IMG/VR virus record: IMGVR_UViG_3300025316_001101
Source: a virus
Lineage: Duplodnaviria > Caudoviricetes
DNA: 64,000 nt
Direction: 5' to 3' (one strand)
Shown piece after piece: positions 995 to 36,049 of the stretch (the stretch's first letter is position 1; every line of letters starts with the position of its first letter). The translations under genes and the position numbers were made by a program. A model generated the notes under the pieces. That model was not told the DNA's origin, ran no database searches, and worked only from the letters and a program-made list of their open reading frames with translations.

Positions 995-1009
995 ATATAT
1001 TTTTTCAAG

Positions 1010-1136
1010 CTGCCGAGAGTCGATTCGAACGACTTCCTTTTGATTAACAGTCAATTGATGTAGTTCCAACTGCATGCGTTGCCGCCAAGGGTCGCTGAAA
1101 CTTTCATTTTTTATGCTACCATTACACCACTCGGCA
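1010..1136 (-). tRNA. tRNA-Asn(GTT)-like RNA with ~55-nt Y-RNA (Ro-binding)-type module between D arm and anticodon arm
   Basis: Acceptor TGCCGAG/CTCGGCA G73, D arm, TTGA-CTGTTAA-TCAA and T arm all present; insert shares GTTTCAGCG..CCTTG and ATGYAGTTGGAACTACATC with the YrlA-like unit at 33937-34065. Confidence 0.7.
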
Positions 1137-19928: not shown

Positions 19929-19964
19929 AGATGAATACAGGAGGACCAGTTATATGTTTCATAG

Positions 19965-20039
19965 TACCCCCGGCAGGAATCGAACCTGCTATTGCCAATT
20001 TAGAAGATTGGTGCCTTATTCCAGTCGAGCCTCGGGGGC
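19965..20039 (-). tRNA. tRNA-Arg(TCT)
   Basis: CCAAT-CTTCTAA-ATTGG; canonical T arm. Confidence 0.9.
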
Positions 20040-20087
20040 GTTTGTTTTTGCGATCATAACTATAAATACTGTTTTAGAGGCAAGCCT

Positions 20088-20528
20088 ATGAAGGTAATTG
20101 CGCCAAGATATAGTAATTGTTTATTAATCTTGTTTTACTTGCTTCTAAGAGGCAAAATACATTTCATTGTTGGCGTAAATTCTGATAGTTCTTGGTGGCC
20201 TTGGCACTTCTTAACACTCAATAAAAAAGGTCACGCTCTCCATTTTAGTCACATTTTGAAACATGAATGGAATCACTTAGCCCCCTGGTGGTTCTTAGGC
20301 CGAATACAAGGCATAGCTAAATGCAAACAAAAAGAAATTATAGCACAACACCATAAAGAAATACGCTTCGTGACTAACAGAATATACCTGTCTCTAACAA
20401 TCTGTTTTATATTCTGTGCCTTTGCTATCATTCCTTACCTTATAGTATTTGCTCTTTACCCCTATTGCTTTGTAATCTATTGGCCAATACATGCCATTGT
20501 TCGCAAATTACAACAGAGTCTTAAATAA
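20088..20528 (+). CDS. Membrane protein with HExxH (HEWNH)
   Basis: ORF track; exact TATAAATA upstream at 20061-20068. Confidence 0.55.
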   Translation: MKVIAPRYSNCLLILFYLLLRGKIHFIVGVNSDSSWWPWHFLTLNKKGHALHFSHILKHEWNHLAPWWFLGRIQGIAKCKQKEIIAQHHKEIRFVTNRIYLSLTICFIFCAFAIIPYLIVFALYPYCFVIYWPIHAIVRKLQQSLK

Positions 20529-20537
20529 AATTTCAAG

Positions 20538-20608
20538 CAGGATCGCTCGGTTCCGCCCCGAGACCGTTGGTTTTGGAGACCAAAATGCTGCTGTTACACC
20601 ACGATCCT
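20538..20608 (-). tRNA. tRNA-Trp(CCA)
   Basis: TTGGT-CTCCAAA-ACCAA; acceptor AGGATCG/CGATCCT, G73. Confidence 0.85.
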
Positions 20609-20613
20609 ATAAG

Positions 20614-20696
20614 CAAGGACGGAGAGAATCGAACTCTCATTTCGGCTTACGCCAAACGGTTTTGGAGACCGCTGCATTCCAGTCTGCCACGCCCTT
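20614..20696 (-). tRNA. tRNA-Trp(CCA) with long variable arm
   Basis: GCGGT-CTCCAAA-ACCGT; variable arm TTGGCGTAAGCCGAA. Confidence 0.8.
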
Positions 20697-20700
20697 ATAA

Positions 20701-20778
20701 AGCCCCGTTGCCTGGGCTTGAACCAATACCTTGGGCTCCAATTGCAAATGCGAGTGCCCACGTGCTACCACGGCTAGG
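20701..20778 (-). pseudogene. Degenerate tRNA-like element (possible GCA or TGC loop)
   Basis: T-arm-like TTGG-TTCAAGC-CCAG; poor anticodon and acceptor pairing. Confidence 0.3.
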
Positions 20779-20952
20779 ATTTCATCCTGTTACTAATGAT
20801 TGATGATTGTGTATCTAGTCTCAAGAACCTGTCCAGGCTCTTCCCCCGGCTCACAGTTTTTTACGCTTTTGCAATTGTTATTCTTGAGCATTCAAAACTT
20901 TTGTCTCACGTTTTCGCAATCTTACTCTCTTTCACCTTTACACCACAACGGG

Positions 20953-21363
20953 TTAATACATTTTTTGGTTCGCAATCGTACAATGAAAGCATTTCCTAAA
21001 TCCTTCAGGCGGTAGCGTGAATTCACTTCTTACCGGCAAACCCAACTCAAGTCTGATATCTTCCAGTCGTACACAAAATATGTTCAACCAGTAGTAAACC
21101 TTTCCCTGTTGGACTATCGGACTATAAAAGAATTCAACTTCTTCGCCCTGATACTTCTTCCAATGTTCTTTGTGAACCGGCTCCTCTTTTTCTTGTCTTA
21201 CAACCGTAATATGTGGATCATATCGAGTGGGCATTACGGGCAACCATTTCGGAATCAATGCCCTATAATACTCTGCGATACCTTTATCCACCTCCACAAT
21301 TAATTTCCATCCTTCATCAGAATACCTTAGTTTTCCGATTGAAGGACATAACACTTCGTCCAT
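20953..21363 (-). CDS. 2H phosphoesterase family protein
   Basis: Two HxT motifs (PHITV, FHCTI); paralog of 39730-40152. Confidence 0.7.
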   Translation of the reverse strand: MDEVLCPSIGKLRYSDEGWKLIVEVDKGIAEYYRALIPKWLPVMPTRYDPHITVVRQEKEEPVHKEHWKKYQGEEVEFFYSPIVQQGKVYYWLNIFCVRLEDIRLELGLPVRSEFTLPPEGFRKCFHCTIANQKMY

Positions 21364-21364
21364 A

Positions 21365-21497
21365 GGGTCGTTGACGAGACTCGAACTCGCATCTTCTCCT
21401 TATGAGAGCTATTTTGCCCACTGGAATTTTTAATCGTTCTACGTTGTTACTCAGCGCTTTTCACAACGCTTCCCGTCCAGATCAAACTACAACGACC
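21365..21497 (-). tRNA. tRNA(CAT)-like RNA with ~60-nt D-loop insertion
   Basis: Acceptor GTCGTTG/CAACGAC, T arm GCGAG-TTCGAGT-CTCGT, CTCATAA loop with weak stem; insert closed by CTGGA/TCCAG. Confidence 0.5.
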
Positions 21498-21502
21498 ATA
21501 AA

Positions 21503-21682
21503 GTTGATTGATCCTGCCTTACCATTATGGATGCTAGCATCGGCTAAGTGACTAACGATCTGTGCCATTTATGCCTTTCAGCACCCCATTCAAGGGCCAC
21601 ACCCATCCCATCCACACACCAACTGCCGCCAGTGCTGACTTTAGGGATTCAGGAGTCTCACCTGCCTTCTCGTTCAATCAAC
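21503..21682 (-). ncRNA. Candidate 180-nt structured ncRNA inside tRNA cluster 2
   Basis: 9-bp terminal stem GTTGATTGA/TCAATCAAC; internal CAGG-TGAGACT-CCTG and TCAGCAC/GTGCTGA. Confidence 0.5.
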
Positions 21683-21684
21683 AG

Positions 21685-21758
21685 GGTGTACGAGCGGACC
21701 TGCCCCGCCTTACTCTTGCTTCACAGGCAAGACCCTCGACTACTTCGGGATCGTACAC
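21685..21758 (-). tRNA. tRNA-His(GTG), atypical D/T loops
   Basis: 8-bp acceptor GTGTACGA/TCGTACAC (G-1), C73; TCTTGC-CTGTGAA-GCAAGA. Confidence 0.75.
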
Positions 21759-21760
21759 AG

Positions 21761-21834
21761 AGCGGTATGAGGGAGTCGAACCCTCACCTAAACGTTGGCA
21801 ACGTTTCGTGCAGCTACCGCTACACCAATACCGC
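21761..21834 (-). tRNA. tRNA-Gly(GCC)
   Basis: AAACG-TTGCCAA-CGTTT; U73. Confidence 0.9.
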
Positions 21835-21840
21835 ATACAG

Positions 21841-21912
21841 TGTGGCATCAAGGAATTGAACCTTGGACCTGCGCCTTATCAGAGCGCCGCTCTACTACTG
21901 AGCTAATACCAC
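21841..21912 (-). tRNA. tRNA-Ile(GAT)
   Basis: GCGCT-CTGATAA-GGCGC; A73. Confidence 0.9.
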
Positions 21913-21922
21913 ATTATTTCAG

Positions 21923-21995
21923 GGTGATTGAGGGTAATCGAAACCCCTCCTACAGATCCACAATCTGCCGTGCTAACCTTTACACCACAACCACC
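21923..21995 (-). tRNA. tRNA-His(GTG)
   Basis: GCAGA-TTGTGGA-TCTGT; G-1 and C73. Confidence 0.9.
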
Positions 21996-21999
21996 ATAA

Positions 22000-22221
22000 T
22001 TAACCTATTACTCCCCACAAAAAATCACACACTCTTTCCCACCAAGTTACTCGCCAAAATTGTCTGCCATGACAACTCACATTGTAATGACGCCATTGAG
22101 ATTTCTCTCCCTGGCGATCTAAATTCCACATTTTACTTTCGGAGTGCAACCATCCTCTCGCCCACGCCTGTGCAAAATGACTTATCGGTTCATGTCTGGT
22201 TAAGGTTTTGAAATGCTTCAT
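22000..22221 (-). CDS. Hypothetical protein
   Basis: ORF track. Confidence 0.5.
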   Translation of the reverse strand: MKHFKTLTRHEPISHFAQAWARGWLHSESKMWNLDRQGEKSQWRHYNVSCHGRQFWRVTWWERVCDFLWGVIG

Positions 22222-22466
22222 TTCTTATCAAACTGACTTTCGGCCCGCTTACCAACCAAAAACGCCTGATAAAGAGTTTCAATCATTTCGTCCTGATTTT
22301 CCTTCGGATTCAATCGTGTTCCACAATGCGAACAAAAGCGTGCGCTGCTAAAGCAAGACTTCTTGCACTCATCGCACATGATCCGCATTTCAAACACGTT
22401 CCAATCCTTGGATTCCAGGTACTTACCCATCTTTCTTGCAACTGTTTCTTTCTTAGTCATTTTCAT
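22218..22466 (-). CDS. Small double-CxxC protein
   Basis: CDEC...FCSHCG. Confidence 0.6.
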   Translation of the reverse strand: MKMTKKETVARKMGKYLESKDWNVFEMRIMCDECKKSCFSSARFCSHCGTRLNPKENQDEMIETLYQAFLVGKRAESQFDKK

Positions 22467-22473
22467 TCTCCAA

Positions 22474-22547
22474 GTGGGACCACTGGGAATCGAACCCAGG
22501 TTGTCGGATTAAAAGTCCGATGTTCTGCCGACTGAACTATAATCCCA
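22474..22547 (-). tRNA. tRNA-Lys(TTT)
   Basis: TCGGA-CTTTTAA-TCCGA. Confidence 0.92.
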
Positions 22548-22550
22548 AAG

Positions 22551-22623
22551 TCGGGCTACCAGGAATCGAACCTGGATTCCGAAGTTATCAGCTTCGTTTC
22601 TTAAACCATTGGAACATAGCCCG
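22551..22623 (-). tRNA. tRNA-Ile(GAT)
   Basis: CGAAG-CTGATAA-CTTCG. Confidence 0.92.
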
Positions 22624-22783
22624 CATGCAACGGAACCACACGCAAAACCTCACTGGCTAACGTCGCCTTGAGAAATAAAGCCGCTTGCACTTTGCTATCG
22701 GCCGAAATTTGCGTCTTCCGCTGCTTTCCATCTTTCTTTGACTTATAAGTCACCTCAAATCTTGTATAATTTCTCTTCATCAT
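22601..22783 (-). CDS. Small basic hypothetical protein
   Basis: GGAG RBS; 3' end overlaps tRNA-Ile. Confidence 0.45.
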   Translation of the reverse strand: MMKRNYTRFEVTYKSKKDGKQRKTQISADSKVQAALFLKATLASEVLRVVPLHAGYVPMV

Positions 22784-22790
22784 TCTCCTA

Positions 22791-22873
22791 GTAGGACCGA
22801 AGGGAATCGAACCCTTATTGCCCTTTCGAGCCCAGATTAAAAGTCTGGAGCATTCCAGTCTGCCACGATCCCA
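22791..22873 (-). tRNA. tRNA-Lys(TTT) with long variable arm
   Basis: CCAGA-CTTTTAA-TCTGG; variable arm GCTCGAAAGGGC; D arm identical to Trp 20614-20696. Confidence 0.82.
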
Positions 22874-22902
22874 TATTGGTGATCGTTGCACGTTTAAGCC
22901 TG

Positions 22903-23178
22903 TTAAAATCCATCTTCCATTTCCTTAATCATTTGTTCAAGAGCAACTTCTTGCTCTGTAATTTTTTGATATTCTTCCGGCGTCATATCTGCCGCACAGT
23001 TGTTGTTACACAACTTCACCAACTTTTCATGTGTCGGTGACTTCCATTTCTCGGCTAACATTTCCTCACCACCGCCGATCAAGTCAACCCATCCCATTCC
23101 CATCGCATTTTCAAATGCGTCTTCTGCGCCACATCGGGTGCAATATGCTCCCGGCCAACCACTCCAATTATGTGCCAT
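22903..23178 (-). CDS. Hypothetical protein (MAHNWSGWPGAYCTRC...)
   Basis: AGGAG RBS; start trimmed from ORF track. Confidence 0.65.
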   Translation of the reverse strand: MAHNWSGWPGAYCTRCGAEDAFENAMGMGWVDLIGGGEEMLAEKWKSPTHEKLVKLCNNNCAADMTPEEYQKITEQEVALEQMIKEMEDGF

Positions 23179-23199
23179 GTTAGTTCTCCTTTGGTGTCT

Positions 23200-23228
23200 A
23201 TTATACCGTAACTGATCCAACTTGTGAA
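23200..23228 (-). promoter_or_regulatory. sigma70-type promoter (TTCACA-17-TATAAT)
   Basis: Consensus match just downstream of attenuator-2 terminator. Confidence 0.6.
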
Positions 23229-23235
23229 CACCAAA

Positions 23236-23268
23236 CAAAAAACCCCGGTTCTTCGAACCGGGGTTTTT
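23236..23268 (-). terminator. Intrinsic terminator (attenuator 2)
   Basis: Stem AAAAACCCCGGTTC/GAACCGGGGTTTTT with U-tract. Confidence 0.9.
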
Positions 23269-23317
23269 CCTAAAACTTATACCGGTTCGGGCTGTCCCGA
23301 CCGGCGTATGCCTTGGT

Positions 23318-23395
23318 TCAGGACGTAGTGTGGCTAATATGACCGTGTTTCGGCCAGCATTTACCACTACGTCTTGTAATCAAAGCAAATAACAT
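23318..23395 (-). CDS. Leader peptide 2 (MLFALITRRSGKCWPKHGHISHTTS)
   Basis: AAAGGA RBS; enriched in codons read by cluster-2 tRNAs; followed by competing hairpins and terminator. Confidence 0.75.
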   Translation of the reverse strand: MLFALITRRSGKCWPKHGHISHTTS

Positions 23396-23413
23396 TTTCG
23401 TTTCCTTTACACC

Positions 23414-23441
23414 TTAGACGCACCAAGCGTCCAAAAGGTTC
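23414..23441 (-). promoter_or_regulatory. ECF-sigma-like promoter (GAACCT-16-GTCTAA)
   Basis: Matches GAACTT-N16-GTCTAA ECF consensus, ~19 nt upstream of leader 2. Confidence 0.4.
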
Positions 23442-23504
23442 ACTAAAAAATGGGCCGGTCATATAGACACGGCCAACCTCTCACCAAGAGAGGGGAGTCG
23501 TAAG

Positions 23505-23577
23505 TGGCAGACCCAGGTTCCGACCCTGGAAGCCTCGGCTTATGAGACCGAGAAGGCGACCACGCCTACCATCTGCT
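23505..23577 (-). tRNA. tRNA-Met(CAT), initiator-like (1:72 mismatch)
   Basis: CTCGGT-CTCATAA-GCCGAG; A1/C72 mismatch. Confidence 0.75.
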
Positions 23578-23582
23578 ATAAG

Positions 23583-23675
23583 TGGTGGGGGCTGGGATCG
23601 AACCAGCGATCTTCAGGTTATTCTAGGGCTTGTCTGAGCCAAGAGCCTGACGAGATGCCTCTTCTCCACCCCACG
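23583..23675 (-). tRNA. tRNA-fMet(CAT) with 21-nt insertion in the anticodon (34/35)
   Basis: fMet-like body CGTGGGG/CCCCACC (C1-C72 mismatch), TCAGG/CCTGA; loop CTC[21 nt]ATAA. Confidence 0.7.
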
Positions 23676-31445: not shown

Positions 31446-32057
31446 TTATTCTGCTTCTGTTGGTTTGCCATCTGCCATTTCGTCTTTAACTAGCTGCTCG
31501 AATCTGCTTTGCAATAGTTGTTCTCCATGCAGTTTCAATTGACGCACTCGCTCTTTTGTAACCTTTATTTTGCTACCAATGGCTTCGAGCGTCATTTCTT
31601 TAACATAATAGTCAAACACTATTTGCTTGCAACGAGCATCCTTTTCAGTATCCTCAGGATGTGATTCAAAGAATCTCTCAATCAACCATGTGGGCATTGC
31701 ATGATCATTACCACGATAATCAGGAATGTCTACCGTATCCCGACGATTCATTCGTTCCAATGATTCAGTCGGCAACCGTTCAGAACGCTTGCGACTACGA
31801 CCAGAATGAATAATGGAATTTTTCATACACATAAATGCCCAAGTGCTGAATTCTCCCCACTTAGGGTTATATGTCCTAATGGCCTGTGCAAGACCAAGAA
31901 GGGCATCAGAAAACTCCTCTGTGTCCATAAGCTCTTGCCCACGCCGACGACGAGCAAATTTCTTCGTCACTTCGATTGCCAAGCCGAAATGATCCTCAGC
32001 CCGAATTTCCACTCGGGGAGTATCTTCTAACATTGGCAATACCTGGGCTACACACAC
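31446..32057 (-). CDS. RNA polymerase sigma70-family factor
   Basis: Region 2 (LGLAQAIRTYNP..FSTWA) and region 4 (TLEAIG...TKERVRQ). Confidence 0.85.
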   Translation of the reverse strand: MCVAQVLPMLEDTPRVEIRAEDHFGLAIEVTKKFARRRRGQELMDTEEFSDALLGLAQAIRTYNPKWGEFSTWAFMCMKNSIIHSGRSRKRSERLPTESLERMNRRDTVDIPDYRGNDHAMPTWLIERFFESHPEDTEKDARCKQIVFDYYVKEMTLEAIGSKIKVTKERVRQLKLHGEQLLQSRFEQLVKDEMADGKPTEAE

Positions 32058-32883: not shown

Positions 32884-32966
32884 AACTTCACTCCTGTGTG
32901 TTTGGTAGCCATTAGGATTATACGGAGAAAATCCGAAAAGTCAATGGCCATGATGATCAAAAAAAA

Positions 32967-33037
32967 TGCGGCCGACAAGGATATGGGGTAGTCTTTACGT
33001 CTTTACTTGATGTAGACCACTCCTGCATTCGGCCGCA
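32967..33037 (-). ncRNA. Y-RNA-like unit A (stem-closed)
   Basis: GCGGCC-GAATGCAGGAGTGGTCTACATC...CTTGTC-GGCCGC. Confidence 0.7.
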
Positions 33038-33132
33038 ATACTGCTGCGTGGTAGACCTTTGATGGACCTTGCATCTATCCCATTGGATACGCCATCAGAG
33101 GTGGCCACTCCCACCCTATGGTGGTTATATTT

Positions 33133-33192
33133 TGGCTCGACAAAGAGTGACAAGTCTTTGTTATTGATGTAGACCAGTCGGCATTCGAGCCA
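33133..33192 (-). ncRNA. Y-RNA-like unit B
   Basis: TGGCTC-GAATGCCGACTGGTCTACATC...TTTGTC-GAGCCA. Confidence 0.7.
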
Positions 33193-33205
33193 TTTGTATT
33201 TACTG

Positions 33206-33333
33206 TTTTGGATTTTAATCTTACCAGACAAAAATCGTAAAGTCTATTGTACTGGGAACATTTAACCCAGTATCTCCGATTGATGGTGGGGATGTAAACC
33301 TTACAAGCATTCTGGTAAGATTGAAATCCAAAA
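33206..33333 (-). ncRNA. Y-RNA-like unit C (long stem)
   Basis: ~22-bp closing stem, GAATGCTTGTAAGGTTTACATC...TTTGTC. Confidence 0.65.
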
Positions 33334-33340
33334 TAAAAAG

Positions 33341-33500
33341 TGTGGGTGCCGGGAATTTCACCCAGACCAACGATTTGAAAATGTAGTCCCATCCTGCATT
33401 CGATCTAAACATTCTTTTGCAAGAACATTTGGATTGACAAGGGACGGCGAGACGAACAGCCTTTCGGCATTCGCTGTGCTGATGTTACACTACACCCACA
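33341..33500 (-). ncRNA. YrlA-like tRNA-mimic Y RNA (unit D)
   Basis: Acceptor GTGGGTG/CACCCAC, D and T arms; anticodon arm replaced by CCTTGTC...GAATGCAGGATGGGACTACAT. Confidence 0.75.
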
Positions 33501-33522
33501 TAAATTTTCAAAAAACAAAAAA

Positions 33523-33597
33523 TAGAAACCTGACAAGAAAACGGCGTAGTCATTTTCATTAATAGTGATGTAGACCACTCCTGCATTCAGGTTTCTA
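33523..33597 (-). ncRNA. Y-RNA-like unit E
   Basis: TAGAAACCT-GAATGCAGGAGTGGTCTACATC...CTTGTC-AGGTTTCTA. Confidence 0.7.
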
Positions 33598-33599
33598 AG

Positions 33600-33768
33600 T
33601 GTCGAGGCCAGGAGTCGCACCTGGACTGGTACTTCCAAAAAGTAAATGTAGTCCCATCCTGCATTCAATCTAAACATTCTTTTGCAAGAATATTTAGATA
33701 GACAAGGGGCGGCGAGACGAACAGCCACCTTGCGGTGGCAAACCGTGCTTCTAAACACTCCCTCGACA
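33600..33768 (-). ncRNA. YrlA-like tRNA-mimic Y RNA (unit F)
   Basis: Acceptor TGTCGAGG/CCTCGACA, T arm CCAGG-TGCGACT-CCTGG; core nearly identical to unit D. Confidence 0.75.
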
Positions 33769-33790
33769 ATAAAATTTCAAAGATCAAAAA

Positions 33791-33870
33791 TCAAAATTAA
33801 AACCAGACAAGGGTTCGATAGTCGTCATTTTTCCGATGTAGACCATCTGGCATTCTGGTTTTAATTTTGA
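33791..33870 (-). ncRNA. Y-RNA-like unit G
   Basis: TCAAAATTAAAACCA-GAATGCCAGATGGTCTACATC...CCCTTGTC-TGGTTTTAATTTTGA. Confidence 0.7.
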
Positions 33871-33935
33871 GTCCGACAAGGGTTCGATAGTCGTCACGTT
33901 TTTGATAATGTAGACCATCTGGCATTCGGACTCAA
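33867..33935 (-). ncRNA. Y-RNA-like unit H
   Basis: TTGAGTCC-GAATGCCAGATGGTCTACAT...CCCTTGTC-GGACTCAA; core duplicated from unit G. Confidence 0.7.
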
Positions 33936-33936
33936 G

Positions 33937-34065
33937 AGTTGAAGATGGGATTTGCACCCATAACCTACTGGTTGGATGTAGTTCCAACTACATTTGGGTT
34001 TTAAGGCCCAACAAGGAACGCTGAAACGTTTTGCCGGTCGCTCTATCTAATTGAGCTACTTCAAC
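33937..34065 (-). ncRNA. YrlA-like tRNA-mimic Y RNA (unit I)
   Basis: Acceptor GTTGAAG/CTTCAAC, D arm, T arm ATGGG-TGCAAAT-CCCAT; insert CCTTGTTGGG..CCCAAATGTAGTTGGAACTACAT. Confidence 0.75.
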
Positions 34066-34224
34066 TTATTGTGTAGACCCGCTTCTAATTCCTTTCGGAA
34101 CTAGCCTACCCTATAGGCCGTCCACACACAGGTTGCCAAGTTATCCCCAGTTCTTGGCTGTAAATTGCTGGGGCAATGTACTCTTGATCGCCCGGCCCTG
34201 CGGCCGGGCGATCCCACACTTTAT

Positions 34225-35934
34225 TTACTCGGCTGCCGATTCCTCGACAACTTCTTCTACAACCGGAGCCGCCGAAGCGTCGTCCAGGCTGACATTTTCA
34301 ATCACCTTGACCCAGTGATCCGCATCGTCGCCGCCTTCCATGAATCCGGCAATAACCTGGAACACTTGATCACTGAAGCCACCCACCTGGAGGATGTCCT
34401 GGTGCTGCTTCACTTGGCTGCTTCCCCTCGGGGTGAGGTCGATACAAACCAACTTTGCCCGTGGATTACGCTTCTTGAACGTCTGCCACTCGGTCATCAA
34501 GCCAGTTGCATTACCATAGGCATAACTGTAACCGCTGTCAACCCAACTTTCGTTGTCGCTGATGAAGACTACAAGGTCGCCCTTTGCCTTCTTTGCATTC
34601 AGTTCTGCCAATGGCAAGCTGCAATTCGTTCCACCACCACCATAACGAGCCAACTTTTGCGCATTCGTCATGATGCTGTCCCTCGAATTCAAGTCGTGCT
34701 TGTAGGTTCGAGTGTCGAACGGAATTACATTTGCCTGCTCGTTAGTACGCAACATGGTCACAGCGAACAGGGCCGCTACGTCCACGCACGAAACCGCCGA
34801 AGATGCACCCATTCGGTATCCCGTTGCCGGGCTACTCATTGAGCCTGAAGTATCGACGCAGACATACATTTCGCCGGAAATCTTCGGCACATTTTGTACC
34901 GCAATTTCCATTGCGTCCTGCAACGCCAAACTAATCTGAGTCGGTACGCCAGTCGCCGCCTTGAAAGCCATCAGCAGTTGGTACGGGAATACCCGTGCCC
35001 GCTCAATTTGCTTCTTGTCACGGAGACGTTCAGCAATAATCTGAACCAATTCCGGGTCACTCAATACGTCGTGTCGCTGGAAGGTGTTCAAATTCATTCT
35101 CGTCATCTGCCACGGGGCAGTACGAGCAATTTGCTTCCACTCGGCTGGGCCGATGCCCAACGAGTCCAACATACGGAAATCAACCCTCGGCACAGTGCCT
35201 TCCTTGGTCCGCTTGTAATTTTCGTAATCCTGCACCAACTGCGGAAGCAGGCTATAATCATGTTCGTAGCAAACGCCTTGAGCGTTTACATATACTTCGC
35301 CATTCTTAGCCAAAGTTACGAGCTTACCGTTGCGAACTTCCGCACCCTTGAGGTATGCGAACATCGCAGCCTTAGCTTCACTGGACGGACGTGGCCGTGC
35401 CATACGAAGAATGTCACGCATGGTCGGATCGTTACCGATAGACGCCTTGAACAAAGCTTCGCCGTTCATACGGTCGAACCAATCACGGATTGCGTGCTTG
35501 ATCGCCCACGAAGTCATATTGATCGGCTTACCGGTGATGGCACCACTACGGCCCATCTGAATAAAGTTTCGCAGCATCTTACCATTGTCGATTACTCGAC
35601 GGAAGACCTTACGGAACAACTTCGGATCGATCTGCGACAATACAACCGTCAAGAACGCTGGCATGTCCTTCATGTATGCCTTGTCACGGCAATAGACCGC
35701 AGTCTTCGCCAGGAACAACGGATCGTCAATCAATGCTTGCGCAGCATCCTTGGCAATCTTTAGATTGTCTTCGGCAGATACGTAGTAAGTGCCGTTGAAG
35801 CAGTTAGTCGCTGCAATTTGAGCCAGCGCATGCTTCGAGGAAAATGAATACGCCTTGCCACCAGCCGCATTAACGGTATCCGCTACCGGTGCAATCGGGG
35901 TACGCTGAGACGCAAAAAGGTTCTTGTTAGCCAT
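34225..35934 (-). CDS. rsr: Ro60 / TROVE-domain RNA-binding protein with VWA domain
   Basis: VNAAGGKAY, MKDMPAFL, MTRMNLNTF, ARVFPYQL, VCVDTSGSM, GGGTNCS, FISDNESW. Confidence 0.92.
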   Translation of the reverse strand: MANKNLFASQRTPIAPVADTVNAAGGKAYSFSSKHALAQIAATNCFNGTYYVSAEDNLKIAKDAAQALIDDPLFLAKTAVYCRDKAYMKDMPAFLTVVLSQIDPKLFRKVFRRVIDNGKMLRNFIQMGRSGAITGKPINMTSWAIKHAIRDWFDRMNGEALFKASIGNDPTMRDILRMARPRPSSEAKAAMFAYLKGAEVRNGKLVTLAKNGEVYVNAQGVCYEHDYSLLPQLVQDYENYKRTKEGTVPRVDFRMLDSLGIGPAEWKQIARTAPWQMTRMNLNTFQRHDVLSDPELVQIIAERLRDKKQIERARVFPYQLLMAFKAATGVPTQISLALQDAMEIAVQNVPKISGEMYVCVDTSGSMSSPATGYRMGASSAVSCVDVAALFAVTMLRTNEQANVIPFDTRTYKHDLNSRDSIMTNAQKLARYGGGGTNCSLPLAELNAKKAKGDLVVFISDNESWVDSGYSYAYGNATGLMTEWQTFKKRNPRAKLVCIDLTPRGSSQVKQHQDILQVGGFSDQVFQVIAGFMEGGDDADHWVKVIENVSLDDASAAPVVEEVVEESAAE

Positions 35935-36021: not shown

Positions 36022-36049
36022 ATTATACGTAGCCTTTTTAGAAAGTCAA
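36022..36049 (-). promoter_or_regulatory. sigma70-type promoter for Ro60/Y-RNA locus (TTGACT-16-TATAAT)
   Basis: Consensus match upstream of rsr. Confidence 0.7.

What the first reader, a model, noticed from the sequence alone, without database searches (positions are those of the whole stretch)
32967..34065. Array of nine Y-RNA-like units in two circularly permuted topologies downstream of phage Ro60
Seen: directly after the TROVE gene, nine units share GAAUGC-N3-4-UGG(U/G)(C/A)CUACAU-like and (C/U)UUGUC strands. Six (A, B, C, E, G, H) are closed by their own unique terminal stems, with the GAAUGC strand 5'. Three (D, F, I) embed the same strands in reverse order inside a tRNA-like acceptor/D/T scaffold. 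Pairs share near-identical cores (A/E, D/F, G/H), indicating local duplication. Established: bacterial Ro60 (Rsr) genes are flanked by Y RNAs including tRNA-mimic YrlA, and Ro/Y RNA occurs in some phages. Inference: nine variants of one module suggest a diversified repertoire of Ro adaptors or decoys, expressed early from a sigma70 promoter (36022-36049).
Basis: partly seen in the sequence, partly recalled or inferred. Interest (0 to 1): 0.8.

Follow-up and report, generated by a model that had tools for sequence, protein, structure and literature searches.

The report
Phage Ro60 with nine Y RNAs
A freshwater jumbo phage encodes the RNA-binding ring protein Ro60 followed by nine small partner RNAs (Y RNAs), three of which are wired like ordinary tRNAs rather than like the known "inside-out" tRNA mimic YrlA, a form I did not find described in the papers I could search.

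Summary
On the minus strand a full-length Ro60 gene (35934-34225) is followed by nine structured RNA units (34065-32967).

- **Six canonical units (A, B, C, E, G, H).** These are hairpin Y RNAs. A unit-specific closing stem encloses a conserved GAAUGC / CUUGUC internal loop, an inner stem with a fixed G.U wobble, then UACAU.
- **Three tRNA-wired units (I, F, D).** They carry the same module with its strands in reverse order, capped by a hairpin. It sits in the anticodon arm of a tRNA-like body with a 7-bp acceptor stem, a D arm and a T arm.

The support is comparative.
- A model built from five units finds 51 matches in 80 related phage Ro60 loci, all on the Ro60 strand, with strong covariation.
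- Secure tRNA-wired units occur in four other phages.
- A ~98% identical strain from another study keeps all nine units. All 12 of its differences in unit F are compatible with the structure, including three compensatory pairs.
- I, F and D share the N73-CU(U) 3' trailer of all 16 phage tRNAs in the window.

The genome holds at least three more RNAs with this docking module. Function and expression are untested. Rfam YrlA and YrlB scores are below threshold. The scan has noted tRNA-shaped Y RNAs on other phage DNA before. This is a new variant of a known kind.

The parts
36022..36049 (-). σ70-type promoter-like site TTGACT-N16-TATAAT upstream of Ro60. A second site lies at 36121-36093.
   Evidence: 11 of 12 consensus positions. 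Function was not tested.
34225..35934 (-). Ro60 (TROVE + vWA) gene, 569 aa
   Evidence: Pfam vWA_Ro60 1.7e-17 and TROVE 1.5e-6. phrog_850 3e-43. Aligns over residues 22-531 to human Ro60 9nen and over 21-531 to Xenopus Ro60 1yvp.
34188..34211 (-). 12-bp G+C hairpin just after the Ro60 stop codon, with no U tract
   Evidence: z -4.6 for the 89-nt stretch
34070..34128 (-). Structured leader element J (three-way fold) with no Y motif; role unknown
   Evidence: z -3.76, 0 of 200 shuffles fold as well
33937..34065 (-). Unit I: a tRNA-wired Y RNA. The 7-bp acceptor, D arm, 5-bp anticodon stem and T arm enclose a capped CUUGU...AAUGU module.
   Evidence: Rfam tRNA 43.8 bits. R3 33.9 bits. ARAGORN accepts the scaffold. 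Homologs in L005 and L029.
33868..33934 (-). Unit H: canonical short Y RNA; starts 2 nt after unit I
33798..33863 (-). Unit G: canonical short Y RNA. Its closing stem can extend to 17 bp, and a 30-nt U-rich spacer follows.
33600..33767 (-). Unit F: a tRNA-wired Y RNA with an extra hairpin X and a 17-bp GNRA-capped closing hairpin
   Evidence: Three compensatory pair changes in a variant strain.
33523..33597 (-). Unit E: canonical short Y RNA; starts 2 nt after F and is followed by a 24-nt U-rich spacer
   Evidence: Rfam YrlB 29.0 bits, E 0.0034
33341..33499 (-). Unit D: a tRNA-wired Y RNA, paralog of F
   Evidence: R2 34.3 bits. ARAGORN accepts the scaffold..
33217..33322 (-). Unit C: long canonical Y RNA with an apical hairpin. 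Its flanks extend the closing stem to about 23 bp (33207-33336).
   Evidence: (33.9 bits). With filters off it scores only 9.1 bits.
33135..33190 (-). Unit B: canonical short Y RNA
33038..33134 (-). 97-nt spacer between B and A; weakly structured, possibly a decayed unit
   Evidence: z -1.75. No model hit.
32959..33037 (-). Unit A (32967-33037) plus a U8 tract. The G+C closing stem with U8 looks like the operon's intrinsic terminator.
1009..1136 (-). Unit K: a tenth Y module, paralog of I, sitting between the D arm and an intact Asn-type anticodon arm (loop CUGUUAA) of a tRNA body in the tRNA cluster
   Evidence: (59.2 bits; it is a training sequence)

Best explanation
This is a Ro60-Y RNA operon of a freshwater jumbo phage.

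**Transcription (inferred).** One transcript starts at the σ70-type promoter near 36049. It runs through the Ro60 gene and nine Y RNA units, and ends at unit A, whose G+C stem is followed by U8.

**Ro60 docking (inferred by homology).** Every unit carries the same Ro60-docking module. It is a helix interrupted by an AUGC-N / N4-5-CUUG internal loop, followed by an inner stem with a fixed G.U wobble and then UACAU.

**Two connectivities (shown).**
- In six units the RNA ends lie at the docking helix, as in YrlB and YrlA.
- In three units (I, F, D) the docking helix is capped by a hairpin, and the RNA ends lie at the acceptor stem of a tRNA-like body.
- This gives the shape expected of YrlA, with the strand connectivity of a normal tRNA.

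**Processing (inferred).** Host tRNA-processing enzymes cut these three units: RNase P at the 5' end and an RNase Z-type or exonuclease step at the 3' end. Those cuts also punctuate the array and free the canonical units, two of which start 2 nt downstream of a tRNA-like unit.

**Function (inferred).** The RNAs bind the phage Ro60 through the shared module. Their differing outer parts (short loops or tRNA bodies) tether or gate Ro60 toward different host partners, such as exoribonucleases and tRNA-binding proteins.
For: **Ro60 is genuine.**

**Canonical module**
- The compound motif occurs 7 times, only in the array.
- The folds and an independent RNAalifold consensus agree.
- Rfam YrlB and YrlA are the best non-tRNA hits in the region.
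- Model R1, built from 5 units, finds unit C, which was not in the model. It also finds 51 matches at E<0.01 in 80 related Ro60 loci, all on the Ro60 strand.
- On those matches 92.7% of cells are paired, against 35-50% when partners are slid, and 16 of 16 pairs show double changes.

**tRNA-wired class**
- Unit I passes the Rfam tRNA threshold. ARAGORN accepts the D and I scaffolds once the insert is replaced by a loop.
- The same architecture occurs in L005 (Rfam tRNA 47.2 bits), L033 (39.2 bits), L029 and four times in L025.
- In 11 such units the paired fractions are acceptor 74/74, T stem 53/54, inner stem 88/88 and closing stem 71/74, with diverse sequences and a U.G wobble in every one.
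- Model R3 gives 89.9% paired against 29-51% when slid.

**Natural variation**
- A ~98% identical strain from another study keeps all nine units.
- All 12 of its changes in F fit the structure: 3 compensatory pairs in the acceptor and T stems, 3 pair-preserving changes and 3 loop changes. Two of the loop changes are GCAA to GUAA.
- One-base indels and a new stop codon break the overlapping ORFs.

**Processing**
- I, F, D and K are followed by N73-CU(U), like all 16 phage tRNAs in the window, and none encodes CCA.
- The same signature is seen in relatives.
- H and E start 2 nt after I and F.
- No strong internal promoter was found.

**Precedent in print**
- Y RNAs are processed from one precursor, in one case together with a tRNA, and M. 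smegmatis YrlA is cut by RNase P and receives CCA (PMC4201824).
- A phage Ro60 binds two phage Y RNAs and host PNPase (PMC12135203).
Against: - No expression, processing or binding data exist for this phage.
- Rfam YrlA and YrlB scores lie far below their gathering scores (25.4 against 69; 29.0 against 97).
- Rfam's tRNA model does not report D or F, and ARAGORN rejects the F scaffold as I cut it.
- I, F and D lack the D-loop GG and have G at T-loop position 55, so the tRNA elbow may be altered and recognition by RNase P is uncertain.
- The homology-based fold of I (-26.3 kcal/mol) is less stable than its minimum free energy fold (-38.2).
- U-rich tracts after G and E could stop transcription or mark separate units.
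- Alignments fitted to my models lean toward my structures, and the 11-unit table was parsed by hand.
- The variant strain is one contig at depth about 9.
Confidence: 0.8

Rival explanations
1. I, F and D (and K) are real decoding tRNA genes interrupted by an intron-like or mobile insertion. The insertion is removed to give functional tRNAs, and the Y-like motif is incidental.
For: The tRNA body of I passes the Rfam tRNA threshold. K keeps an intact Asn-type anticodon arm and a G73 discriminator. The 3' trailers match those of the phage tRNAs.
Against: - Removing the insert from I, F or D leaves no anticodon loop.
- From my own knowledge, the only known bacterial tRNA introns are group I introns, which are far larger.
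- The insert is the same conserved module as in the six canonical units and as next to Ro60 in other phages.
- The insert's own helices evolve under pairing constraint.
Confidence: 0.04
2. The array is not cut into separate RNAs. It acts in cis as a structured 3' untranslated region of the Ro60 mRNA. For example, Ro60 could bind its own message for autoregulation or stabilisation, or the array could be a sponge.
For: There is no strong internal promoter, and no canonical terminator lies between Ro60 and the array. Every unit carries the presumed Ro60 site.
Against: - The tRNA-like units carry the same flanks as true tRNAs, which predicts cleavage.
- In relatives the units lie upstream as often as downstream of Ro60.
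- K and two further scaffold RNAs lie tens of kb away from Ro60.
- Published bacterial Y RNAs are discrete products of a precursor (PMC4201824).
Confidence: 0.07
3. Only some units are functional. The rest are decaying duplicates from recent local amplification, so the number nine has no functional meaning.
For: The pairs A/E, G/H and D/F share cores. The 97-nt B-A spacer looks like a remnant. I, F and D have non-canonical D and T loops.
Against: - Each unit keeps a complete, well-paired module with its own covarying closing stem.
- A diverged strain keeps all nine, with only structure-compatible changes.
- Mixed arrays of up to six units recur in L025.
Confidence: 0.08

Closest known systems
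YrlA (Rfam RF02553; Chen et al. 2014, PMC4201824; structure described in bioRxiv 10.1101/312249)
   Same: - Encoded beside Ro60.
- Ro-binding helix with GAAUGC on one strand and CUUGUC on the other (Rfam consensus).
- A tRNA-like domain with acceptor, D and T arms attached on the inner-stem side.
- Related phages carry canonical YrlA at the same place (L002 and L004, 55-59 bits; L063, L086 and L093).
   Different: - In YrlA the ends lie in the Ro helix and the acceptor stem is a closed loop, so it resembles a circularly permuted tRNA.
- In I, F and D the ends lie at the acceptor stem and the Ro helix is closed.
- I, F and D also lack the D-loop GG and the usual T-loop UUC.
- Rfam scores are below threshold.
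- Among the 11 loci checked with both Rfam and my models, those with tRNA-wired units show no canonical YrlA, and the reverse also holds.
YrlB / Yrn2-type short hairpin Y RNAs (Rfam RF02565; PMC4201824)
   Same: Units A, B, E, G and H are 56-75-nt hairpins with the same internal loop and a small apical loop. YrlB is the best Rfam hit on E and also hits A.
   Different: There are five to six paralogs in a row, against the one described per bacterium. Scores lie far below the gathering score of 97.
Thermus phage phiLo Ro60 with Yrl1 and Yrl2 (PMC12135203)
   Same: A phage-encoded Ro60 with adjacent phage Y-like RNAs. Binding was shown, and a complex formed with host PNPase.
   Different: phiLo has two RNAs upstream of the gene. 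No tRNA-wired form and no array were described.
[quoted passage not shown]
   Same: [quoted passage not shown]
   Different: There the acceptor ends arise by cutting a closed loop and give a two-piece RNA. Here they are encoded as the primary ends of a one-piece RNA.
Bas63 gp130, a Ro60-like anti-defence protein (PMC11482910)
   Same: A Ro60-like phage gene next to genes annotated as tRNAs. The authors guessed that some of these could be Y RNAs. The gene counters the Ppl defence system.
   Different: No RNA was analysed there. Any relation to this phage's Ro60 was not tested.

Membership tests
Bacterial/phage Y RNA (Ro60 partner RNA) | Encoded next to a Ro60 ortholog, on the same strand | tested here: met
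   The array starts 160 nt after the Ro60 stop codon, on the same strand. In relatives 51 of 51 model hits lie on the Ro60 strand.
Bacterial/phage Y RNA (Ro60 partner RNA) | A long stem holding the conserved Ro-binding helix, with the 5'-strand motif GNCGAAN0-1G (PMC4201824) | tested here: inconclusive
   The GAAUG core is present in 8 of 9 units (I has AAAUGU). The full GNCGAA form is present only in A. The helix and internal loop are conserved and covary.
Bacterial/phage Y RNA (Ro60 partner RNA) | Physical binding by Ro60 | not testable with these tools
   Needs immunoprecipitation or a gel shift.
Rfam YrlA (RF02553) / YrlB (RF02565) | Score at or above the curated gathering score | tested here: not met
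   YrlA on H scores 25.4 against 69. YrlB on E scores 29.0 and on A 17.6, against 97.
YrlA-type tRNA mimic | The tRNA-like domain has a closed acceptor loop, and the RNA ends lie in the Ro helix | tested here: not met
   I, F and D have open 7-bp acceptor stems at the RNA ends and a hairpin-capped Ro helix. No canonical YrlA is present in the array.
tRNA (RF00005) | Cloverleaf scoring above the gathering score | tested here: inconclusive
   I scores 43.8 bits, above 29. D and F are not reported. ARAGORN accepts the D scaffold and rejects the F scaffold after the insert is replaced. F's acceptor and T stems show compensatory changes.
tRNA (RF00005) | A 7-nt anticodon loop that can decode | tested here: not met
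   In I, F and D the loop is replaced by 62-111 nt. Only K, outside the array, keeps an anticodon arm.
tRNA (RF00005) | Conserved elbow nucleotides (G18 G19 in the D loop; U54 U55 C56 in the T loop) | tested here: not met
   The D loops of I, D and F have no GG. Their T loops read UGCAAAU, UGAAAUU and UGCGACU. K and the relatives L005, L029 and L033 are canonical.

The most novel reading that the evidence does not exclude
The phage uses one conserved Ro60-docking handle as a portable tag, fused to mimics of different translation-machinery RNAs.
- Three tRNA bodies in the array carry it.
- A tRNA-Asn-like RNA that still has its anticodon arm (K) carries it.
- At least one large RNA elsewhere in the genome carries it, with an apical part that matches the 23S GTPase-associated centre.

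Together these at least 12 RNAs would form a programmable set of Ro60 particles. They would target or sequester host factors that act on tRNA and ribosomes, for example defence nucleases.

The tRNA-wired form would also be the missing intermediate between tRNA and YrlA. A tandem duplicate of such a unit, read in the other register, is a canonical YrlA.
Probability: 0.25. Interest if true: 0.85.

Novelty: new variant of a known kind. Interest (0 to 1): 0.66.

Why it matters
**Number.** Published Ro60 systems have two to four Y RNAs. The bacterial and phage tRNA-mimicking type (YrlA) has been described as a circularly permuted tRNA. This phage has nine Y RNAs in one array and at least twelve RNAs with the docking module in its genome.

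**Connectivity.** The same docking module also exists in the connectivity of a normal tRNA, conserved in at least five jumbo phages.

**What this makes testable**
- Whether Ro60 needs free RNA ends near its binding helix.
- Whether tRNA-processing enzymes mature Y RNAs and punctuate Y RNA arrays.
- How YrlA arose from tRNA, an origin from dimeric pre-tRNAs having been proposed in bioRxiv 10.1101/312249.

**Annotation.** tRNA genes with large "introns" next to phage Ro60 genes may be Y RNAs.

Tried and rejected
- **Phage collection.** blastn of the locus against the INPHARED phage records gave no match.
- **RNA runs.** No RNA holder was listed in either search. Nothing can be said about expression.
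- **More units in the array.** R1 with filters off found no further canonical unit in the leader or in the B-A spacer.
- **Protein-coding reading.** The ORFs overlapping the array are rejected. The variant strain carries 1-base indels inside two of them (33075-33392 and 33784-33987) and a new stop codon in the 117-aa ORF.
- **Junction hits.** R2 and R3 'permuted' hits in L093, L086, L077 and L063, and at window 33167-33245 and L001 6983-7041, are set aside. They lie on junctions between neighbouring canonical units or tandem YrlAs. The covariation figures include some of these rows, so the hand-parsed table is the cleaner set.
- **First structure for I.** The inner stem GUUCC/GGAAC used in R2 was replaced by GUUUCAGC/GUUGGAAC after comparison with K and L005.
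- **Another motif hit.** The hit at G000:197081 lies in what looks like coding sequence.
- **Partner enzymes.** No RtcB, CCA-adding enzyme or RNase PH/PNPase domain was found in the 259-kb record, which CheckV estimates at about half complete.
- **E1 as an rRNA mimic.** Rfam gave no LSU hit on the 235-nt RNA at G000:217028-217262. Its resemblance to 23S helices 69-71 rests on memory only.
Full report
**Setting**

The window is part of a 259-kb IMG/VR virus record. Near-identical DNA is found in freshwater and lake metagenomes of several studies.

All genes around the finding are on the minus strand.
- The ORF 35934-34225 (569 aa) is a genuine Ro60. It hits Pfam vWA_Ro60 and TROVE and phrog_850. 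It aligns over residues 22-531 to human Ro60 and over 21-531 to Xenopus Ro60 structures.
- A σ70-type promoter-like site, TTGACT-N16-TATAAT, lies at 36049-36022. An identical one at 32944-32917 serves the next gene. No site of comparable quality lies inside the array.

**Observation**

Read on the minus strand, the stretch 34065-32967 holds nine units in the order I, H, G, F, E, D, C, B, A.

The compound motif (GAATGC, 3-6 bases, [TG]GG, 1-3 bases, CTACAT) occurs seven times, all in the array, and nowhere else in the 64 kb on either strand.

A, B, C, E, G and H fold alike. A closing stem that differs in sequence from unit to unit is followed by an internal loop: AUGC-N on the 5' side and N4-5-CUUG on the 3' side. 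Then come an inner stem with a conserved G.U wobble and UACAU. RNAalifold predicts the same structure unaided, and seven closing-stem positions covary among the paralogs.

This is the layout of the Rfam YrlA and YrlB consensus. Those two families are the best non-tRNA matches in the region, though far below their gathering scores:
- YrlB on E scores 29.0 bits, E 0.0034.
- YrlA on H scores 25.4 bits, E 0.014.
- YrlB on A scores 17.6 bits.

**The three other units**

I, F and D have a 7-bp acceptor stem formed by their own 5' and 3' ends, a D arm and a T arm.
- Unit I passes Rfam's tRNA threshold (43.8 bits) with a 61-nt insertion in place of the anticodon loop.
- ARAGORN accepts the I and D scaffolds when the insert is replaced by a neutral loop. 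It does not accept F as I cut it.
- The insert is the same module with its strands in reverse order: inner-stem strand, N4-CUUG, a capping hairpin, AUGC-N, inner-stem strand, ACAU.
- The strand sequences of D and F resemble those of E and A on both sides.
- The G of the wobble pair sits on the AUGC strand at the same distance from the loop in both connectivities.

The tRNA body is attached on the inner-stem side in both forms. The two forms should therefore have the same shape and differ only in where the chain is open. That is a circular permutation.

Published work describes YrlA as resembling a circularly permuted tRNA with a closed acceptor loop (bioRxiv 10.1101/312249; PMC11472068). I, F and D are thus the un-permuted counterpart.

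**Comparative support**

Two searches with the Ro60 protein fetched 88 loci from IMG/VR: 8 and 80. A few contigs recur in both sets. The matches are 41-57% identical to this Ro60, and many contigs exceed 200 kb.

*Canonical module.*
- A covariance model of five window units (R1) finds unit C, which was not in the model.
- R1 finds 51 matches at E<0.01 in the 80 loci. All lie on the Ro60 strand and flank the gene.
- On those matches 92.7% of cells are paired, against 35-50% with slid partners, and all 16 pairs show changes on both sides.

*tRNA-wired class in other phages.*
- L005 holds a 130-nt unit with Rfam tRNA 47.2 bits.
- L033 holds one with 39.2 bits.
- L029 holds one, and L025 holds four.
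- Several of these are capped by UUCG or GNRA tetraloops.
- In a hand parse of 11 secure units from five phages, the paired fractions are acceptor 74/74, T stem 53/54, inner stem 88/88 and closing stem 71/74. The sequences are diverse, and every unit has a U.G wobble in the inner stem.

*Junction artefacts.* Model R3 also hit sites in L093, L086, L077 and L063. Rfam shows that these are junctions in tandem arrays of canonical YrlA, so I do not count them.

*Substitution pattern.* Among the 11 loci I checked with both Rfam and my models, the two tRNA-mimic forms do not co-occur.
- Loci with secure tRNA-wired units (window, L005, L025, L029, L033) have no canonical YrlA hit.
- Loci with canonical YrlA (L002, L004, L063, L077, L086, L093) have no secure tRNA-wired unit.
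- This suggests that the two forms substitute for each other.

**Natural variation**

Contigs of a run from another study carry a roughly 98% identical strain that spans the whole array with the same nine units.

Twelve of its differences fall in unit F, and all fit the proposed structure:

| Place in F | Change |
|---|---|
| Acceptor stem | A-U to G-C |
| Acceptor stem | G-C to A-U |
| T stem | G-C to A-U |
| Closing hairpin | U.U to U-A |
| Closing hairpin | U.G to U-A |
| Closing hairpin | A-U to G.U |
| Two tetraloops | GCAA to GUAA |
| T loop | one base |

Two changes in unit C turn A-U into G.U. One-base indels and a new stop codon break the ORFs that overlap the array, which excludes a coding reading. 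The caveat is that this strain is a single contig at depth about 9.

**Processing signals**

- None of the 16 phage tRNAs in the window encodes CCA. Each has its discriminator followed by CU(U).
- I, F, D and K have exactly the same trailer, and similar AU-rich leaders.
- The signature recurs in tRNAs and tRNA-wired units of relatives.
- H and E begin 2 nt after I and F. G and E are followed by 24-30-nt U-rich spacers, and A by U8.
- The closing stems of C and G can extend to about 23 and 17 bp.

I infer a polycistronic precursor cut by tRNA-processing enzymes at I, F and D. There is published precedent:
- Y RNAs are made from one precursor, in one case with a tRNA.
- M. smegmatis YrlA is cut by RNase P and receives CCA (PMC4201824).

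**More of the family**

- A tenth unit, K (1009-1136), lies in the tRNA cluster 32 kb away. It is a paralog of I whose module sits between the D arm and an intact Asn-type anticodon arm.
- A genome-wide scan for the closing stem plus loop found two larger RNAs outside the window with the same scaffold.
- The apical part of the 301-nt RNA matches the bacterial LSU rRNA model at positions 1085-1152, the GTPase-associated centre (30.6 bits, E 4.5e-7).
- Other first readers of this scan had flagged these two RNAs as rRNA mimics without recognising the Y scaffold.

**Function**

Nothing here tests function.
- The published model is that Y RNAs gate Ro60 and tether it to partners such as PNPase (PMC4201824; PMC12135203).
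- A Ro60-like phage gene counters a defence system (PMC11482910).
- The phage record shows no RtcB, CCA-adding enzyme or PNPase domain. Partners are therefore probably host proteins.

**Unexplained**

- I, F and D all lack the D-loop GG and have G at T-loop position 55, whereas K and the relatives are canonical.
- The role of leader element J is unknown.
- The homology-based fold of I is less stable than its minimum free energy fold.

**Novelty**

I found no paper describing a tRNA-connectivity Y RNA or an array of this size. The review by Sim et al. (2020) could not be read.

Earlier reports of this scan describe tRNA-shaped Y RNAs beside Ro60 in other phages. This is therefore a recurrence within the scan, here in its richest form.

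Noticed in passing
window 1009-1136 (-): Unit K is a tRNA-Asn-like body (anticodon loop CUGUUAA, discriminator G) carrying the Y docking module between the D arm and the anticodon arm. It might still be charged or decode.
   Followed up: partly
outside the window: G000:C1:206813-207113 (+) = L095 314-614: A 301-nt RNA has an 11-bp closing stem and the same GAAUGC...GGGACUACAU / GUCUC...CUUGUC scaffold. Its apical part hits Rfam LSU_rRNA_bacteria positions 1085-1152, the GTPase-associated centre (30.6 bits, E 4.5e-7). It looks like a Y RNA carrying an rRNA mimic.
   Followed up: partly
outside the window: G000:C1:217028-217262 (+) = L096 229-463: A 235-nt RNA has a 15-bp closing stem and the same scaffold. 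Its interior recalls 23S helices 69-71 from memory only, and Rfam gave no LSU hit.
   Followed up: partly
window tRNA genes at 424-1608 and 19964-23675 (-): All 16 phage tRNAs lack an encoded CCA and have the discriminator followed by CU(U). The tRNA-wired Y units share this lineage-wide 3' trailer signature.
   Followed up: yes
window 33937-34065, 33600-33767, 33341-33499 (-): The three tRNA-wired units of the array all lack GG in the D loop and have G instead of U at T-loop position 55. K and the relatives L005, L029 and L033 keep both canonical features. This looks like a correlated change at the tRNA elbow.
   Followed up: no
L063 2263-2697; L093 2892-3341; L086 5407-5817: Related phages carry tandem arrays of two to three canonical YrlAs. 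Read in the other register, a tandem pair resembles a tRNA-wired unit, which suggests duplication as the route between the two connectivities.
   Followed up: partly
L025 5590-6381: This related phage has a mixed array of six units downstream of Ro60: four tRNA-wired and two canonical, separated by 0-4 nt.
   Followed up: partly
window 34070-34128 (-): A stable three-way structured element lies between Ro60 and unit I (z -3.76). It has no Y motif and no Rfam match.
   Followed up: no
outside the window: G000:C1:85100-85329 (L097): The 3' end of a phage tmRNA (Rfam 49.4 bits) is followed by a 71-nt hairpin with an 11-bp closing stem and GAAUGC, but without UACAU.
   Followed up: no
window 31446-32057 (-) and 32917-32944 (-): A phage σ-factor gene lies two genes downstream of the array. 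The gene directly after the array (32883-32356, 175 aa, no family match) has the same TTGACT-N16-TATAAT promoter-like site as Ro60.
   Followed up: no
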